DNA of 34,362 bases from an uncultured Candidatus Saccharibacteria bacterium (GCA_964640425.1 CAZXFC010000002.1:1-34362); one strand, 5' to 3'; shown: positions 7,089 to 33,214, numbered from the stretch's first letter. Made by a program: numbers and translations. The notes: a model not told the origin generated them from the sequence alone.

Positions 7089-7135
7089 GGACAAAAATTA
7101 AACACACCCTAAGAGGATGTATTTAATTTTTGTCC
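7089..7135 (-). terminator. Long hairpin at the tRNA-Lys 3' end
   Basis: GGACAAAAATTAAACACA...TGTATTTAATTTTTGTCC, 17/18 complementary. Confidence 0.6.
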
Positions 7136-7205
7136 GCCCGGCAGGAATCGAACCTGCGACCATCTCCTTAAAAGGGAGCTGCTCTACCGACTGAGCTACG
7201 GGCGG
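7133..7205 (-). tRNA. tRNA-Lys(UUU)
   Basis: CCGCCCG TA GCTCAGTCGGTAGAGC...CT-TTT-AA...GCAGG TTCGATT CCTGC CGGGCGG A; full cloverleaf, CCA not encoded. Confidence 0.95.
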
Positions 7206-27669: not shown

Positions 27670-28191
27670 TTAAAAAAGAAACCGCTTGCCCTCCCATTTA
27701 TGTGGCTTGGTAATCTTCCTAAGCACTACTAAATTTTTTTGAATTTCTTCTAAACGCGCCAGGTTTTCCGGCTCCCAAACAGTTTTAATAAATCCAAAAA
27801 CTCCAGGGCGAACATTGATTTTTTTTCTTTTTGTTTTTAGTATAATCGCAACCGCTTCCTTCCATAGAACAAAATCAAAGCGTTTTTTAGCCTGCAGGTG
27901 ATTTTTTTCAAAAAAAGGCACTACTTTGTTATTTAGATCAGCAACATCAGCTACTTGATATCTGGCAAATCCTCTTTTCGCCACGCTGACAGTACCGCAT
28001 TCCATGGTTTCTTTAATCCTTTTTAGTATATCTATATCATCTTCGCGTAGTACAATACTAAATTGAATTTTCCATAAAAAATATGTCGGTTTATTTTTGC
28101 GCTCATGGCGAACATCACGCCTAAAATGTAAAGCGAAGCAACCTTCTCCGTCTACAAATCCTGCCACGTATTCACCAGAAAGTTTTTCCAC
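27670..28191 (-). CDS. Stand-alone single-motif LAGLIDADG endonuclease
   Basis: YVAGFVDGEGCF, CGTV, PFFEKNHL..KK..DF..W; GTG 28191 preferred over TTG 28257. Confidence 0.88.
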   Translation of the reverse strand: MEKLSGEYVAGFVDGEGCFALHFRRDVRHERKNKPTYFLWKIQFSIVLREDDIDILKRIKETMECGTVSVAKRGFARYQVADVADLNNKVVPFFEKNHLQAKKRFDFVLWKEAVAIILKTKRKKINVRPGVFGFIKTVWEPENLARLEEIQKNLVVLRKITKPHKWEGKRFLF

Positions 28192-28215
28192 AAAAAACAA
28201 ATTATTTTTAATAAT

Positions 28216-28238
28216 GTCGCACAATGCAATTATACGAC
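28216..28238. repeat. 23-bp pseudo-palindrome upstream of the LAGLIDADG gene
   Basis: GTCGCACAAT-GCA-ATTATACGAC. Confidence 0.65.
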
Positions 28239-28278
28239 AACTTCTTTTTAGTTTCAATAAGACGAGTTAAAATAAGGT

Positions 28279-29460
28279 ATGCGAACTTCTTATTCTGCGC
28301 TCGATACTTTCAAACAGTGTCCGCAAAAATTCAAATTCCAAGTCATAGATAAAATAAAAGCGCCGAAATCGATTGAGGCGGTTTTTGGCACCGTCGTACA
28401 CTCTTCGCTCAAGTTCATGTTTTCGCACGATCCGATATTCCCCGCCTTAGACGAGATACTGGCCAACTTTGCCGAATCCTGGCAAGTGTCGTCAAAAAAA
28501 GTTGTACCTGTCTTGGATAAAAATTTAAGCGCGACTTACGAAGAAAGCGGCAAGGGCCTGCTTAAAAATTTTTACAAAAAAAATCAGCCTTGGAATTTTT
28601 CGGTAGTCGATACCGAGTCCAAATTCGAGGTCTTGCTTCCGGCCGAAGACGGCAAAACCCATGTGTTGGCAGGCATCATCGACCGCATCGACAAGCTCGC
28701 CGACGGAGAGTACGAGATAATCGACTACAAGACCAACCGCAAGCTTCCCTCTCAGGCCGCGGTGGATGCGAATACACAGATGTCCATTTATCACATGGCG
28801 CTCACGAAAAGATGGCCCAATATCGATCCGTCAAAAATAAAATTATCTTTATATTTTCTTAAACACGGGGAAAAGCTCTCGTCGTTCCGGCCCGAGGATT
28901 CTTTGAAAGTAGTTGCCGAATCCGTCCTCGCGACAATCCGCGAAATAGAAAAGAGAACTGCGGATAATAAATTTCCGCCCATTACCTCGCCTCTCTGTGA
29001 TTATTGCGCTTACAAGCCGATGTGCCCGGCGTGGAAACATCTGTATAAAAAAGATGCTCTGCCCGCACCGGACGATGTGGAATTGCAATCGGCGCTACAC
29101 GAATACTTTGCGATTAAAGAAAGCGAAAATAAAAATGATAAGCGCATCAAAGAATTGCAAAGTATTGTAAAAGCATACATGGACGCCAACGGAGTCGAGC
29201 GCGTATTTGACGGGCGGGGGTATTATATTTCAAAGAAGCTCCAACAGCGTTTCAAATACGATCTGGATAAAGTAAAAGCGATTTTGCTGGGCGCAAACCT
29301 GCGGGACAAATGGGAGGCATTGCTTGAAGCCGATGAGAAAAAATTAAAAGTTGTCATGGATACTCTCCCCTCCCCCATACAGGCTGAAATTGCGAATCTC
29401 AAAACCCTCTCCAAAGAATTTACGGTTCTTTACGCCTCCACGAAACCGGTGAAGAAATAG
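28279..29460 (+). CDS. PD-(D/E)XK nuclease, RecB/AddB-like with Fe-S cysteines
   Basis: SYS....F.QCP, GIIDRID, IIDYKT, QMSIY and CDYC.....C. Confidence 0.88.
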   Translation: MRTSYSALDTFKQCPQKFKFQVIDKIKAPKSIEAVFGTVVHSSLKFMFSHDPIFPALDEILANFAESWQVSSKKVVPVLDKNLSATYEESGKGLLKNFYKKNQPWNFSVVDTESKFEVLLPAEDGKTHVLAGIIDRIDKLADGEYEIIDYKTNRKLPSQAAVDANTQMSIYHMALTKRWPNIDPSKIKLSLYFLKHGEKLSSFRPEDSLKVVAESVLATIREIEKRTADNKFPPITSPLCDYCAYKPMCPAWKHLYKKDALPAPDDVELQSALHEYFAIKESENKNDKRIKELQSIVKAYMDANGVERVFDGRGYYISKKLQQRFKYDLDKVKAILLGANLRDKWEALLEADEKKLKVVMDTLPSPIQAEIANLKTLSKEFTVLYASTKPVKK

Positions 29461-30581: not shown

Positions 30582-31067
30582 TTATTGTTTTTTTAATTCC
30601 CTAACTTCAATTTTAACAACCGTCGCCTCAGCGCCGATTTTTATTTTTGCCTCGTGGAGTCCCAACGTTTTAATGGGCGTCTCTATCACAACCATTGATT
30701 CATCCATATTTTCAGGCAAAGGAAATTTAAGGACGTTTAGAGCCTCCAATATTTCTCTTGGGGAAACGGCGGCGTAAAGCGAGACTTCCTGCCCCGCTCC
30801 TTTTTGCGAAATCTCATTGCCTTTCTTTTTTATGACTATCCCCCGCTCCATAAGCGCGGCGCGCAAAGCATGCATAATCTCATGAATGCGTTTTTTTTCG
30901 GCGGTTTGGCTTTTTGATTGCTCTTCAACTTTTTTGATGGCGTCCTCGGTAGCGAGCTCGGCAAGCTTATTGCGAATAAGCATATTTCGGCCGAACCCGT
31001 CGGCTACATCTTTGATCTCCCCGCGCTTTCCCAGCTTGGGTACCTCTTTTAATAAGATTACTTTCAC
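30582..31067 (-). CDS. rplI: 50S ribosomal protein L9
   Basis: MKVILLKEVPKLGKRGEIKDVADGFGRNML...PIKTLG.H. Confidence 0.95.
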   Translation of the reverse strand: MKVILLKEVPKLGKRGEIKDVADGFGRNMLIRNKLAELATEDAIKKVEEQSKSQTAEKKRIHEIMHALRAALMERGIVIKKKGNEISQKGAGQEVSLYAAVSPREILEALNVLKFPLPENMDESMVVIETPIKTLGLHEAKIKIGAEATVVKIEVRELKKQ

Positions 31068-31171
31068 CCCGTTAAAAAATTTACATTATATAATATACCA
31101 ATAGCGACTACTACCGGCAAAGAAACATTATTGCCAACAAAGTTTATTTTAAATTTTTCTACGGGGTTCAT
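31064..31171 (-). CDS. 35-aa element-encoded coupling uORF
   Basis: MNPVEKFKINFVGNNVSLPVVVAIGILYNVNFLTG*; its stop overlaps the rplI GTG. Confidence 0.6.
   Translation of the reverse strand: MNPVEKFKINFVGNNVSLPVVVAIGILYNVNFLTG
31067..31166 (-). mobile_element. 100-bp MITE-like element at the rplI start codon (TGAA duplication)
   Basis: Same length, TIRs and TGAA flanks as 23377-23476. Confidence 0.85.
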
Positions 31172-31178
31172 GGTTTAT

Positions 31179-31207
31179 ATGGTAGCTAAAAAGTCCTAAT
31201 TTTGCAA
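31179..31207 (-). promoter_or_regulatory. Promoter for uORF-rplI (leaderless geometry)
   Basis: TTGCAA-17-TACCAT-7-ATG. Confidence 0.6.
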
Positions 31208-31377
31208 TGAAATTCGGTCCTAAAAATTTAATTCAATATTTAAGGCTAAAATTAAGTAATAAAAATTGTCAAACGCTCATTATACGGCTCTATTACTAGG
31301 TTTTTTAGCTCTTTATTTATAAAAAACTTGATTTTAAAAAAACCTTATTTAGAGCCGTTTTTTTAGATATCATCTAG

Positions 31378-31386
31378 TTATCCACA
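31378..31386 (+). promoter_or_regulatory. DnaA box
   Basis: Perfect TTATCCACA 8 nt upstream of a -35 element. Confidence 0.55.
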
Positions 31387-31394
31387 GCCTTTCA

Positions 31395-31441
31395 TTGACA
31401 ACTCACACATGGAAGAATACACTGGAGTATTAGTTCTTTGA
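31395..31441 (+). promoter_or_regulatory. Sigma70 promoter followed by a boxA-like motif
   Basis: TTGACA-17-TACACT, then AGTTCTTTGA at 31432-31441. Confidence 0.7.
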
Positions 31442-31827
31442 TAGGCGGGTAATAAAGAAAAAAACAACAAGTTGTAATCAACAACTCCCAACACACAATT
31501 AAATACGCACAACCCCAGACAAACCAAACAACCACCAAACAACAGACAAACCACAAACACCCAAAAACTCCAACAACACCAAAACAACCCAAATAAACAC
31601 CAACACAATCAACCCCACAACTTACAACAACCCAAAACATCAACACCCACACCCCAACACTATCCAAACCGCAATCCAACTTATTACCAACAATCCAACA
31701 ACAACCGCCACCAAACCAAACTTCAACTTCCCATAACCAACACGACAAAAAAAACAACCACAAACTCTAAACCATAAATCCAACTCGCCCCGACCACCCA
31801 TGGACCTCTCGCAGGTCCTCTTTTTTT
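31430..31827 (+). ncRNA. Candidate A/C-rich non-coding RNA (unknown family)
   Basis: Bounded by a promoter and a terminator; no ATG-initiated ORF in the tract; GGCGGGT/ACTCGCC closing stem around 332 nt with only 9 G. Confidence 0.5.
31802..31827 (+). terminator. Intrinsic terminator
   Basis: GGACCT-CTCGC-AGGTCC followed by TCTTTTTTT. Confidence 0.7.
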
Positions 31828-31839
31828 GGTTTTTTTAAG

Positions 31840-31942
31840 AACTAAGCAATAAGCCTCTAAGCGGGTTATGCAGCAGCATCCCCGAGCGAGTCCGTCAGCT
31901 GGCGGACGAGGCGAGGAAAGTGAAGAGGCTTATTGCTTAGTT
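31840..31942 (+). repeat. Inverted-repeat element with conserved structured core, copy 2
   Basis: Perfect 19-bp arms AACTAAGCAATAAGCCTCT / AGAGGCTTATTGCTTAGTT; overlaps the S41 protease stop. Confidence 0.8.
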
Positions 31943-33214
31943 AATAGCCTTCAGTACTTCAATGGCTTTCTCCATTTGCGGGTCTTTTTCGGCTTCGGCG
32001 TCTTCCTTTTTGAATTCCACAATAATATCCGGTTCAAGTCCCTTTTCGGATATAGAATCGCCGTTAGGCGTCAGCCATTTTGCAATTGTGATCTTTACGG
32101 CCGTATCCGCAGTTATCGGTACCAATTCCTGCACCGAGCCTTTGCCGAATGTTTTTGCGCCAATGAGTTTTGCCATGCCGTTGTCACGCAAAGCGCCGGC
32201 CAATATTTCTGACGCCGATGCGGAACCCTCATTAACCAAAATTACCATCGGTAAATTCTCGAATATATCGTATCCCCTGCTCCTGTGCGTCTGGATATTA
32301 CCCTTTCCGAAGTCTTCCTGCACGACAACTTTCTCTATTGGCAAAAACCAACTGGCCATATCCACGGCCGCCTCCAAATAACCTCCAGGATTGTTGCGCA
32401 AATCGAGTATCAGCTTGCTTTTACCGCTTGTCACAAAATTGCGCAGAGCATTCCTGAATTGGTCCGGGGAAGTTTCAGAGAAATTATAAAGCCGGATCAG
32501 ATATATGCCATATTGCGCCGCGATATCTTTATATTTATCACCGGGCGCGGGCTTGCCGTCTTCTCCGACTGAAGATTTTTCGGAAGAAGTATCTATAACT
32601 GGAACATTAATAACCGCCCGCTCTATTTCTATGGTCCGCGAGGAATCCTCCCCGTTCCTAACAATGATAAGTTTAACTTTTGTTCCTTTCGGACCCCTGA
32701 TGTAACCTATCGCTTCTTCCAAAGTAATATCCGCGGTCTGATGGTCATCTATTTTCAGAATTTTGTCACCGGCTTTTACGCCCGCTCTTTCTGCCGGAGT
32801 ATCCTTAAGAGGAGCAACCACCGTGAGAATATCCTTTTTCATCCCTACCTCCATACCTACCCCCTCAAAAGCACCCTTTACTTCGCTCTGGAAGGCGGCA
32901 TTTTCTTTAGGTGGAAAAAATACGGTATATGGATCCTCCAACGACTTAAGAAGCCCCTTCATCGCGCCATAAACCATATCCTGGCGCTTCACTTTGTCAA
33001 TATCAACATATTTCTGCTCAATGAGGTCCCAAGCCTGCCAAAATGGCCCGAAATCAGTATTTTCCTGAAACGGTATCGTGGGTCGTTTTCCGATAACCTG
33101 GACCACTTTGTTCTCGCCCGGCAATTTCACGCCGACATACAATCCAAATGAAAATATCAGAACTACGAATACAGCCGCACCGAGCAGCGGCATAAGTTTT
33201 CTCCAAGTCCACAT
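31937..33214 (-). CDS. ctpA: Carboxyl-terminal processing protease (S41A, PDZ domain)
   Basis: DPYT, FEGVG, LDLRNNPGG, SASASEI and TFGKGSVQ. Confidence 0.93.
   Translation of the reverse strand: MWTWRKLMPLLGAAVFVVLIFSFGLYVGVKLPGENKVVQVIGKRPTIPFQENTDFGPFWQAWDLIEQKYVDIDKVKRQDMVYGAMKGLLKSLEDPYTVFFPPKENAAFQSEVKGAFEGVGMEVGMKKDILTVVAPLKDTPAERAGVKAGDKILKIDDHQTADITLEEAIGYIRGPKGTKVKLIIVRNGEDSSRTIEIERAVINVPVIDTSSEKSSVGEDGKPAPGDKYKDIAAQYGIYLIRLYNFSETSPDQFRNALRNFVTSGKSKLILDLRNNPGGYLEAAVDMASWFLPIEKVVVQEDFGKGNIQTHRSRGYDIFENLPMVILVNEGSASASEILAGALRDNGMAKLIGAKTFGKGSVQELVPITADTAVKITIAKWLTPNGDSISEKGLEPDIIVEFKKEDAEAEKDPQMEKAIEVLKAIN

What the first reader, a model, noticed from the sequence alone, without database searches (positions are those of the whole stretch)
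31395..31827. Candidate novel ncRNA: promoter, boxA-like motif, 7-bp clamp around 332 nt of A/C-rich sequence, terminator
Seen: 31451-31782 has by manual count 9 G and about 32 T (~88% A+C). It is built of non-periodic AAC/CAA/ACC words, so it cannot fold much and has no ATG-started ORF. It is framed by TTGACA-17-TACACT, AGTTCTTTGA (boxA-like, as in rRNA leaders), a closing stem GGCGGGT(31444-50)/ACTCGCC(31783-89) and an intrinsic terminator. Known: C-rich, G-poor unstructured RNA is a Rho substrate that boxA/Nus antitermination protects, and AANAANAA-rich sRNAs such as CrcZ sequester RNA-binding proteins. Inference: a deliberately unstructured ~390-nt stable RNA acting as a protein sponge or scaffold. 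An assembly or base-calling artefact remains possible.
Basis: partly seen in the sequence, partly recalled or inferred. Interest (0 to 1): 0.88.

Follow-up and report, generated by a model that had tools for sequence, protein, structure and literature searches.

The report
Orphan A/C-only transcribed tract
A 349-base stretch made almost only of A and C, set between a promoter and a terminator, is real DNA in one ultra-small groundwater bacterium. It would give an RNA that cannot fold, but no relative has it and its job is unknown.

Summary
Window 31451-31782 has A170, C121, T32 and G9. It is the only such tract in the 1.15-Mb genome, and assemblies of four separate groundwater sequencing runs carry it without a difference.

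It is non-coding and matches no Rfam family. Statistically it behaves like a random string of its own composition. Its predicted folding energy is -4.5 kcal/mol over 340 nt, against -86.7 ± 15.2 for other windows of this genome.

A 10-of-12 sigma-70-type promoter and a strong intrinsic terminator frame it on the A/C strand. The chance rates are about 0.012 and 0.003, so a roughly 400-nt RNA is likely, but I have no expression data.

The "clamp" arises in 11.6% of shuffles. The "boxA" 9-mer occurs 25 times in the genome. Rho was found in 0 of 41 genomes searched. Hfq, CsrA and cold-shock proteins were not found in the own genome. The Rho/boxA and Hfq-sponge reasoning therefore fails.

No relative has a comparable tract: 0 of 29 syntenic loci, 0 of 19 family genomes, and nothing alike among 400 genomes of the class.

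Best reading (about 0.4): an orphan gene for a base-pair-free RNA that acts as a decoy or landing pad for machinery that binds single-stranded RNA. Main rival (about 0.25): functionless filler DNA made by biased, untemplated synthesis.

The parts
31395..31423 (+). Sigma-70-type promoter-like site, TTGACA-17 nt-TACACT (10 of 12). The predicted transcription start is near 31430.
   Evidence: One search found it. One search counted 452 sites of at least 10/12 in 2.3 Mb of both strands, which is 0.012 expected per 60 nt. It is a prediction only; there are no RNA data.
31430..31450 (+). Short leader of ordinary composition. It holds GTTCTTTGA (31433-31441) and GGCGGGT (31444-31450).
   Evidence: Read. 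The 9-mer occurs 25 times in the genome. The clamp partner is within chance at 11.6% of shuffles.
31451..31799 (+). A/C-only body, 349 nt, about 88% A+C. The order is A > C > T > G. It is statistically random, non-coding and cannot form Watson-Crick pairs.
   Evidence: The fold energy is -4.5 kcal/mol for 340 nt, against -86.7 ± 15.2 in 490 genome windows. Four runs carry it with 0 differences.
31802..31836 (+). Intrinsic terminator: a 6-bp stem (4 G-C pairs) with a 5-nt loop at 31802-31818, then TCTTTTTTTGGTTTTTTT. It works on the + strand only, because no T-run follows the hairpin on the - strand.
   Evidence: One search found it. One search counted 170 such sites genome-wide, which is 0.003 expected per 40 nt.

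Best explanation
The tract is real chromosomal DNA of one Patescibacteria-type groundwater bacterium. It forms a self-contained + strand transcription unit: a sigma-70-type promoter, a roughly 20-nt leader, a 349-nt body made almost only of A and C, and a strong intrinsic terminator.

The unit lies in a gap between the S41 (CtpA-like) peptidase gene and rplI. That gap is insertion-prone in this genus; in most relatives the two genes abut.

Inferred: the unit makes an RNA of about 400 nt that stays single-stranded, because A and C cannot pair. No motif stands out above composition, so it would act through composition alone. It could serve as a landing pad or decoy for machinery that binds single-stranded RNA. 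Candidates found in this genome are a four-S1-repeat (S1-like) locus and two MazF/PemK-type endoribonucleases. Rho, Hfq, CsrA and cold-shock proteins were not found, so they are unlikely partners.

Shown: the DNA, its uniqueness, its lack of coding and of structure, and the framing signals. Not shown: transcription, stability, any partner, any phenotype.
For: - Composition and uniqueness.
- Identical sequence in contigs of four runs from four samples of one study, at the depth of the flanks. Between them, the contigs bridge every junction.
- Promoter and terminator on the A/C strand lie exactly at the two ends of the tract. Chance rates are 0.012 and 0.003.
- Fold energy is -4.5 kcal/mol, against a genome mean of -86.7 ± 15.2. 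Of 490 windows, 0 were as weak.
- The order G (3%) < U (10%) << C < A is what selection against base pairing would give. This last point is inference.
- No coding signal and no Rfam family.
- S1-domain and PemK matches in the own genome.
Against: - It is a singleton.
  - 0 of 29 syntenic rplI loci of relatives have a tract.
  - 0 of 19 other family genomes match the A/C pattern.
  - Among 400 class genomes, 17 have a pattern match but none has a long, non-repetitive tract. The matches are coding linkers, simple repeats, contig-end junk, or A-rich spacers of 65-140 nt.
  - 0 of 17 metagenome loci with an S41 relative have a comparable tract; one (L070) has a 62-nt A/C stretch about 2 kb from the S41 match, which I did not inspect.
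- Function without conservation is weak.
- There are no RNA data.
- No binding motif is enriched: AANAANAA 6 against 4.9, ACA 34 against 32.3, YC 60 against 62.
- An unstructured RNA with an unprotected 5' end would normally be short-lived.
- Random-like statistics fit a non-functional origin equally well.
Confidence: 0.4

Rival explanations
1. Functionless filler. The body is the product of a template-independent or strongly biased polymerisation, by an Abi/DRT-class reverse-transcriptase relative or a nucleotidyltransferase. It was captured into the chromosome, perhaps replacing the ORF of a small cassette whose promoter and terminator survive. The few T and G would be later C-to-T and A-to-G mutations.
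For: - The statistics are zero-order: dinucleotides fit independence and repeats are at chance level. An untemplated polymerase with fixed base preferences would give exactly this.
- It is a singleton at a site where two sister species carry a different promoter-ORF-terminator cassette.
- There are more T than G (32 against 9), as expected from the usual GC-to-AT mutation bias.
- Untemplated, biased DNA synthesis exists in bacteria. AbiK makes 'random' DNA (PMC3177184, passages read) and DRT1 makes DNA that is at least 70% A (PMC13275509, passages read).
- The genome has one reverse transcriptase, on contig C18.
Against: - I know of no case of such a product entering a chromosome.
- The genome's RT is of a generic type, below every specific family cut-off, and is not nearby.
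- The exact fit of the tract to the promoter and terminator would then be a coincidence, or require an exact ORF replacement.
- No significant DNA similarity links the flanks to the sister cassette.
- The published texts I read give no A>C>>T>G product.
Confidence: 0.25
2. The relevant strand is the other one, or the DNA itself. The G/T-rich - strand lies in the path of read-through from the S41 gene towards rplI. It could act as a spacer or insulator between the two genes, or as a site for a DNA-binding or single-strand-binding protein.
For: - S41 and rplI lie on the - strand and abut in most relatives, so they are probably co-transcribed there.
- No - strand terminator lies between S41 and the tract.
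- Earlier notes of this scan describe strand-composition blocks next to phage genome ends and origins.
Against: - The framing signals are on the + strand.
- The - strand RNA folds no better than its shuffles (z = +0.69).
- C-runs of 3 or more are too sparse for canonical G-quadruplexes on the - strand (run lengths).
- This is not the replication origin. There is a single DnaA box here and no skew turn; the best box cluster is on contig C11.
Confidence: 0.1
3. A long, start-codon-free, unstructured leader that feeds ribosomes to the first AUG of the transcript (31800). This is a 12-codon ORF, MDLSQVLFFWFF, that runs through the terminator, in the manner of CAA-rich viral leaders.
For: - The only start codons in the predicted transcript are TTG at 31438 and at 31472 (both run into early stops; the second sits directly before TAA), ATG at 31800 and TTG at 31826.
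- (CAA)n and omega-type leaders support scanning-like initiation (PMC3963034, passages read).
Against: - No Shine-Dalgarno sequence precedes the ATG.
- The ORF is 12 codons long and its stop (31836-31838) lies beyond the likely 3' end.
- An ATG soon after an A/C-only stretch ends is not rare by chance.
- No homologue could be sought for so short a peptide.
Confidence: 0.05
4. One reading: a C-rich, G-poor Rho substrate shielded by boxA/Nus antitermination, or an Hfq/Crc-type protein sponge like CrcZ.
For: - The composition is C-rich and G-poor.
- NusB is present.
- GTTCTTTGA lies just after the predicted start.
Against: - Rho_RNA_bind was found in 0 of 41 genomes, while the control search rang in 9 of 14 model genomes.
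- Hfq and CsrA were not found in the own genome.
- No CrcZ or other family appears even at E up to 10.
- The motifs are not enriched.
- The 9-mer is common in the genome.
Confidence: 0.03
5. Assembly or base-calling artefact, or a protein-coding low-complexity region.
For: - A/C-only junk next to N runs and at contig ends occurs in other genomes of the class (G223, G285, G231, G176).
- A/C-only codons would give K, N, T, Q, H and P, and one relative has a coding tract of that kind inside an 831-aa frame (G042).
Against: - Independent contigs of four runs agree letter for letter, at flank depth, and together bridge all junctions. Random noise cannot assemble over 349 nt.
- The tract lies inside a contig, with syntenic genes on both sides.
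- There is no start codon, all frames have stops, there is no codon periodicity, and G and T are lacking at all three codon positions.
Confidence: 0.05

Closest known systems
Rho utilisation (rut) sites, and the G-poor C/A-rich tracts noted earlier in this scan beside phage genome ends
   Same: Strand-specific depletion of G, a high share of C and A, no structure, and conservation (where seen) of composition only.
   Different: This lineage shows no Rho (0 of 41 genomes). The tract is longer (349 nt against about 200-230 nt). It is chromosomal, in a housekeeping neighbourhood. It has its own promoter and terminator. It is also poor in U.
Protein-sequestering sRNAs (CrcZ/CrcY with Hfq/Crc; CsrB/RsmZ with CsrA)
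   Same: A non-coding RNA of a few hundred nt, proposed to act by offering many single-stranded binding sites.
   Different: Those RNAs carry repeated defined motifs in a conserved structure and are conserved across species. Here no motif is enriched, no structure is predicted, no relative has it, and Hfq and CsrA were not found.
CAA-rich, G-poor viral and synthetic leaders (tobacco mosaic virus omega, (CAA)n)
   Same: A- and C-rich RNA free of Watson-Crick pairs that ribosomal particles can load on and move along (PMC3963034, passages read). CAACAA is mildly over-represented here (7 against 3.0, P = 0.024 uncorrected).
   Different: Those leaders are about 70 nt, periodic, and sit before a real ORF. 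Here there are 349 non-periodic nt followed only by a 12-codon frame inside the terminator.
CA-motif GTP aptamer (tandem ACAACA/GCAACA repeats; PMC4156500, abstract and sections 7 and 9 read)
   Same: It shows that C/A-only RNA can adopt non-canonical structure and bind a ligand, so 'cannot fold' means 'no Watson-Crick fold'.
   Different: It needs at least 10 perfect tandem ACAACA units. Here there are 5 scattered copies and no tandem pair, and no period-3 or period-6 array. [quoted passage not shown]
Products of template-independent Abi/DRT-class polymerases (AbiK, DRT1)
   Same: Non-templated, statistically random polymers with a base bias.
   Different: Those are protein-linked single-stranded DNA, not chromosomal sequence. 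DRT1 product is at least 70% A (PMC13275509). No A>C>>T>G product is reported in the text I read. No such enzyme was identified here.

Membership tests
Any Rfam RNA family | Match to a covariance model at the gathering score | tested here: not met
   The only hit in the window is a tRNA at 7133-7205. In 31100-32000 nothing scores better than E = 3.7, and all five matches lie outside the tract body and are far below the gathering score.
Rho-dependent terminator / rut site with boxA-Nus protection | The organism encodes Rho | tested here: not met
   PF07497 was found in 0 of 41 genomes (own genome, 19 of the family, 21 of the class). The control search rang in 9 of 14 model genomes.
Rho-dependent terminator / rut site with boxA-Nus protection | C-rich, G-poor, unstructured RNA of at least about 80 nt | tested here: met
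   C is 36% and G is 3% over 332 nt. Fold energy is -4.5 kcal/mol.
Rho-dependent terminator / rut site with boxA-Nus protection | A boxA element like that of the organism's own rRNA leader | tested here: inconclusive
   No 16S gene is present in the own assembly or in three same-genus assemblies. The 16S leader of family member G005 has no copy within 2 mismatches. The 9-mer occurs 25 times in the genome. NusB is present.
Hfq/Crc-sequestering sRNA (CrcZ type) | Hfq is present, and there are several AANAANAA (A-R-N) motifs above the background rate | tested here: not met
   PF17209 was not found in the own genome, which is 88.9% complete. AANAANAA counts are 6 against 4.9 in shuffles, and (ARN)4 counts are 2 against 1.4.
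CsrA-sequestering sRNA (CsrB type) | CsrA is present, and GGA motifs sit in hairpin loops | tested here: not met
   PF02599 was not found. There are 0 GGA in the tract.
CA-motif GTP aptamer | At least 10 perfect tandem ACAACA units, or at least 6 GCAACA units | tested here: not met
   There are 0 tandem pairs of ACAACA. TRF reports only weak 11-nt periods.
Protein-coding low-complexity (Thr/Pro/Asn/Gln) region | An open frame with a start codon, codon periodicity and varied third positions | tested here: not met
   There is no ATG/GTG/TTG ORF, and all frames have stops. Base use is alike in all three phases. The 123-aa - strand frame has no Pfam family and is open simply because G/T-only DNA cannot spell a stop.
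Hypermutated copy of another sequence (transitions G>A and T>C, or transversions) | A purine/pyrimidine or weak/strong pattern shared with a parent sequence | tested here: not met
   The best 100-nt ungapped match in the whole genome is 76 of 100 in either reduced alphabet, about what chance gives. Against the sister-species ORF it is 68-71 of 100.
Replication origin | A cluster of DnaA boxes and a turn in GC skew | tested here: not met
   There is one perfect box, at 31378-31386. Cumulative skew falls steadily across the site. The densest box cluster is at C11:4571.
Product of a template-independent polymerase | An enzyme with matching base preference, and a route into the chromosome | not testable with these tools
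   Only the zero-order statistics are compatible. The one RT in the genome is generic.

The most novel reading that the evidence does not exclude
The tract is a genomic fossil of template-independent synthesis. A polymer laid down base by base by an enzyme that prefers A and C was captured into a bacterial chromosome exactly between a promoter and a terminator. It is now expressed as a pairing-free RNA that the cell has co-opted as a decoy for machinery that binds single-stranded RNA. This would be a de novo RNA gene born from untemplated sequence.
Probability: 0.1. Interest if true: 0.85.

Novelty: new variant of a known kind. Interest (0 to 1): 0.45.

Why it matters
If it is transcribed and functional, this would be a bacterial RNA gene defined only by what it lacks: G, U and therefore structure. 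It sits in a lineage without Rho, Hfq or CsrA. That would point to an unknown way of using single-stranded RNA in ultra-small symbiotic bacteria.

If it is filler from untemplated synthesis, it would show that such polymers can enter genomes and become raw material for new genes.

If it is neither, it remains a clean example of how a well-framed, striking sequence can be a lineage-specific oddity. It also shows that composition-only elements need composition-aware searches. The shared collections here cannot be scanned that way.

Tried and rejected
- **Hypermutated copy of the sister-species ORF or of any sequence in the genome.** Reduced-alphabet alignments gave nothing.
- **Homology of the flanks to the sister cassette.**
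  - tblastn with the sister ORF gave no significant hit (best E = 0.40).
  - The MAFFT alignments were unconvincing.
  - Local alignment scored below the shuffles.
- **Growth by tandem duplication.** Repeats are at chance level.
- **Origin of replication.** Rejected.
- **Coding on either strand.** Rejected.
- **Expression.** No RNA holder was listed, so expression is untested.
- **Same element elsewhere.**
  - BLAST against 40 relatives gave only short chance-level hits.
  - An exact 24-mer had 0 hits in genome contigs and 0 in viral contigs.
  - blastn 'distant' against phages and plasmids gave no match. Its low-complexity filter may mask the tract itself.
  - 17 JGI loci with an S41 relative, all at or below 62% identity, hold no comparable tract; L070 has one 62-nt A/C stretch, not inspected.
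- **Composition-only scan of the large collections.** It was not possible. I dropped the step. Only 20 family genomes and 400 class genomes were scanned by pattern.
- **Earlier notes of this scan.**
  - No entry exists for this genome or sequence.
  - The word search gave only unrelated Patescibacteria gene notes.
- **Literature.**
  - The two searches found no description of such an RNA.
  - The AbiK product sequences are in figures and supplements that I could not see.
  - The base preference of poly(A) polymerase I is recalled, not checked. One search gave listings only.

Full report
**What is there**

With its tapering ends the tract runs from 31451 to 31799.

A 300-nt window here holds the window-wide minimum of G (6, against a mean of 64 ± 11) and of T, and the maximum of A and C.

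The whole genome is 1.15 Mb in 88 contigs, 88.9% complete. No other stretch in it reaches 82% A+C or G+T over 150 nt, or 90% over 50 nt.

**Is the DNA real?**

Logan contigs of four groundwater metagenome runs (four samples, one study) carry the region with no differing letter. Depth is 2-4x, the same as the flanks. The contigs cover:
- X1: 31087-31525 and 31533-31877
- X2: 31442-31592 and 31595-31821
- X3: 31046-31474
- X4: 31593-31795

Between them they bridge both ends of the tract and its interior. Noise in base calling cannot assemble identically over 349 nt in four libraries, so I put an artefact at a few per cent. All four runs belong to one study, so this is one population, not independent lineages.

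**What the sequence looks like**
- It behaves as a random string drawn from A 0.51, C 0.36, T 0.10, G 0.03.
- Dinucleotides fit independence: AA 86 against 86.8 expected, AC 65/61.8, CA 67/61.8, CC 41/44.
- The three codon phases have the same base use, and the autocorrelation is flat.
- The longest exact internal repeat is 11 nt, against 11.5 ± 1.5 in 1000 shuffles. Repeated 8-mers are slightly raised (47 against 30.6, P = 0.025).
- TRF finds only two weak 11-nt periods.
- No candidate binding motif exceeds composition: AANAANAA 6 against 4.9, ACA 34 against 32.3, YC 60 against 62, GGA 0. CAACAA is mildly high (7 against 3.0, P = 0.024 uncorrected).
- A-runs of length 2-3 look somewhat over-represented in the run-length counts. 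I estimated this by hand and did not test it further.

**Not coding, not a known RNA, not a disguised copy**
- No + strand ORF with ATG, GTG or TTG exists, and each + frame has TAA stops.
- The - strand frames are open only because G/T-only DNA cannot spell a stop. The 123-aa frame has no Pfam family.
- Rfam gives nothing at gathering scores, and nothing in the tract even at E up to 10.
- I tested whether the tract is a hypermutated copy of something. I looked for G-to-A plus T-to-C changes, or the transversion equivalent, by aligning in purine/pyrimidine and weak/strong alphabets. The best 100-nt match anywhere in the genome is 76 of 100, about what chance gives. Against the gene that sister species carry at this site it is 68-71 of 100.

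**Transcription signals**
- The scan finds TTGACA-17-TACACT at 31395-31423.
- It also finds a hairpin at 31802-31818 (6 bp, 4 G-C pairs, loop of 5) followed by two T-runs.
- Genome-wide there are 452 promoter-like sites of that quality and 170 terminator-like sites on both strands. That gives 0.012 expected in the 60 nt before the tract and 0.003 in the 40 nt after it, on the given strand.
- The - strand has no T-run after the hairpin.

So the A/C strand is framed as a transcription unit of about 400 nt. This is the strongest argument that the RNA, not the DNA, is the point. It remains a prediction, because no RNA run was listed for this DNA.

**Structure**
- The 340-nt core folds to -4.5 kcal/mol. 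For 490 random windows of the same genome the mean is -86.7 ± 15.2 and the weakest is -40.8.
- The whole 407-nt transcript folds to -25.5 kcal/mol. This is no better than its shuffles (z = -1.2), and most of the energy comes from the terminator and end pairings.
A partner for GGCGGGT arises in 11.6% of shuffles.
- 'Cannot fold' should be read as 'no Watson-Crick fold'. C/A-only RNAs can adopt non-canonical structures (PMC4156500, abstract and two sections read; PMC3963034, passages). The tandem-repeat requirement of the CA-motif aptamer is not met here.

- Rho's RNA-binding domain was found in 0 of 41 genomes (own genome, 19 of the family, 21 of other families of the class). The same search rang in 9 of 14 model genomes.
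- Hfq, CsrA and cold-shock domain proteins were not found in the own genome. NusB is present.
- The 'boxA-like' GTTCTTTGA could not be compared with the organism's rRNA leader. Neither the own assembly nor three same-genus assemblies hold a 16S gene.
- The leader of family member G005 has no copy within two mismatches.
- The 9-mer occurs 25 times in the genome, against 11.5 expected, and most copies have flanks that look like coding sequence, though I made no gene calls.

The 'Rho substrate protected by boxA' and 'CrcZ-like Hfq sponge' readings are therefore not supported. If the RNA is a sponge, its partner is something else. A locus with four S1 repeats on contig C3 and two PemK/MazF homologues on C11 are present. 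These are candidates only.

**Neighbourhood and relatives**

The flanks are rplI (L9, 30582-31067, - strand) and an S41/PDZ peptidase (31937-33214, - strand). The wider contig is housekeeping DNA.

I mapped the flanking genes in 10 relatives' loci:
- In 8 of them the S41 gene ends within roughly 35 nt of the start of rplI.
- In two same-genus species (G002, G003) a 673-692-nt insert carries a + strand promoter, a 165-aa ORF of no Pfam family and a terminator.
- In the own genome the gap is about 870 nt.

The site thus takes up different cargo within the genus. However, I found no sequence link between the two kinds of insert.

The searches for a comparable tract gave these results:
- 0 of 29 syntenic rplI loci of relatives have an A/C or G/T tract (80% over 80 nt).
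- 0 of 19 other family genomes match a pattern of 60 A/C letters with up to 3 mismatches. The own genome gives 58 matches, all in the tract.
- 17 of 400 genomes sampled from the class match that pattern. I took from the listed matches the eight loci that looked non-repetitive or artefact-like and fetched them. The matches fall into four groups:
  - Pro/Thr-linker coding repeats.
  - (AACC)n or (CAA)n arrays.
  - Poly-C or poly-A junk at contig ends or next to N runs.
  - A-rich non-periodic stretches of 65-140 nt at six of the fetched loci. One lies next to DnaA boxes upstream of a dnaN-like ORF (by recall), one is inside an 831-aa frame, and those in G201 fall inside long open frames.
- None of these has the size or the framing of this one.
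- 17 metagenome loci with an S41 relative (62% identity or less) hold no comparable tract. One, L070, has a 62-nt A/C stretch about 2 kb from the S41 match, which I did not inspect.
- An exact 24-mer of the tract is absent from the genome and viral collections.

**Reading**

Two explanations fit the data about equally well, and I cannot separate them without RNA data or closer strains.

The first is an orphan RNA gene. Its framing signals are too good for chance, and the order G < U << C < A is what selection against pairing predicts.

The second is filler. A zero-order random polymer is what untemplated, base-biased synthesis produces, and a singleton with no enriched motif is what functionless DNA looks like. 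T and G could be later C-to-T and A-to-G mutations of an originally pure A/C polymer. Untemplated polymerases with base bias exist in bacteria (PMC3177184 and PMC13275509, passages read), but capture of their product by a chromosome is not something I have seen described.

I put the RNA gene at about 0.4, filler at about 0.25, and the remaining rivals together at about 0.23, as listed under rival explanations.

**Comparison with what is known**

By composition it resembles rut sites and the G-poor C/A-rich blocks that earlier notes of this scan describe next to phage genome ends. It differs in four ways: the lineage has no detectable Rho, the setting is chromosomal, the tract is longer, and it has its own promoter and terminator.

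It works, if at all, like a sponge sRNA or like a CAA-rich leader. It is a member of neither family: the defining features were tested and not met (see the membership table).

I therefore rate it a new variant of a known kind of sequence, with moderate interest. The lack of conservation and of expression data holds the score down.

Noticed in passing
window 31840-31942: A perfect 19-bp inverted repeat around a 65-nt loop, directly after the S41 stop codon. It is a repeated element, with further copies on contigs C75, C30, C35 and C8.
   Followed up: partly
window 31378-31386: A perfect DnaA-box 9-mer (TTATCCACA) lies 8 nt upstream of the -35 hexamer of the tract's promoter. The genome has 30 perfect boxes, and the densest cluster (the likely oriC) is at C11:4571-4580. 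A regulatory role here is possible but untested.
   Followed up: partly
window 31284-31365: An imperfect hairpin with 24-nt arms followed by T7 on the + strand. It looks like a second + strand terminator upstream of the promoter, inside the 28% GC spacer at 31068-31390. Part of that spacer (31103-31171) resembles C2:23372-23440 and C10:3296-3353.
   Followed up: no
L010 2136-2636 and L011 2091-2588 (same-genus genomes G002, G003): At the same S41-rplI site, two sister species carry a + strand cassette: a promoter, a 165-166-aa ORF with a Cys-rich C-terminus and no Pfam family, and a terminator. It is absent from the own genome by tblastn.
   Followed up: partly
window 31800-31838: The first ATG of the predicted transcript opens a 12-codon frame, MDLSQVLFFWFF. 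It runs through the terminator hairpin and T-runs, and its stop lies beyond the likely RNA 3' end.
   Followed up: no
window 27670-28257 and 28279-29460: A free-standing LAGLIDADG endonuclease gene next to a PD-(D/E)XK (Cas4-like) nuclease gene, about 2-4 kb from the tract.
   Followed up: no
G000:C18:4410-5021 (L074 1297-2259): The only reverse transcriptase found in the genome: 320 aa, next to ruvA, and below the cut-offs of the group II, retron, DRT and Abi models.
   Followed up: partly
G223:C22:6620-6688, G285:C4:14771-14839, G231:C1:1-69, G176:C14:47-115: Other genomes of the class hold C/A-only homopolymer-rich junk next to N runs or at contig ends. These are probably assembly artefacts in those records.
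   Followed up: no
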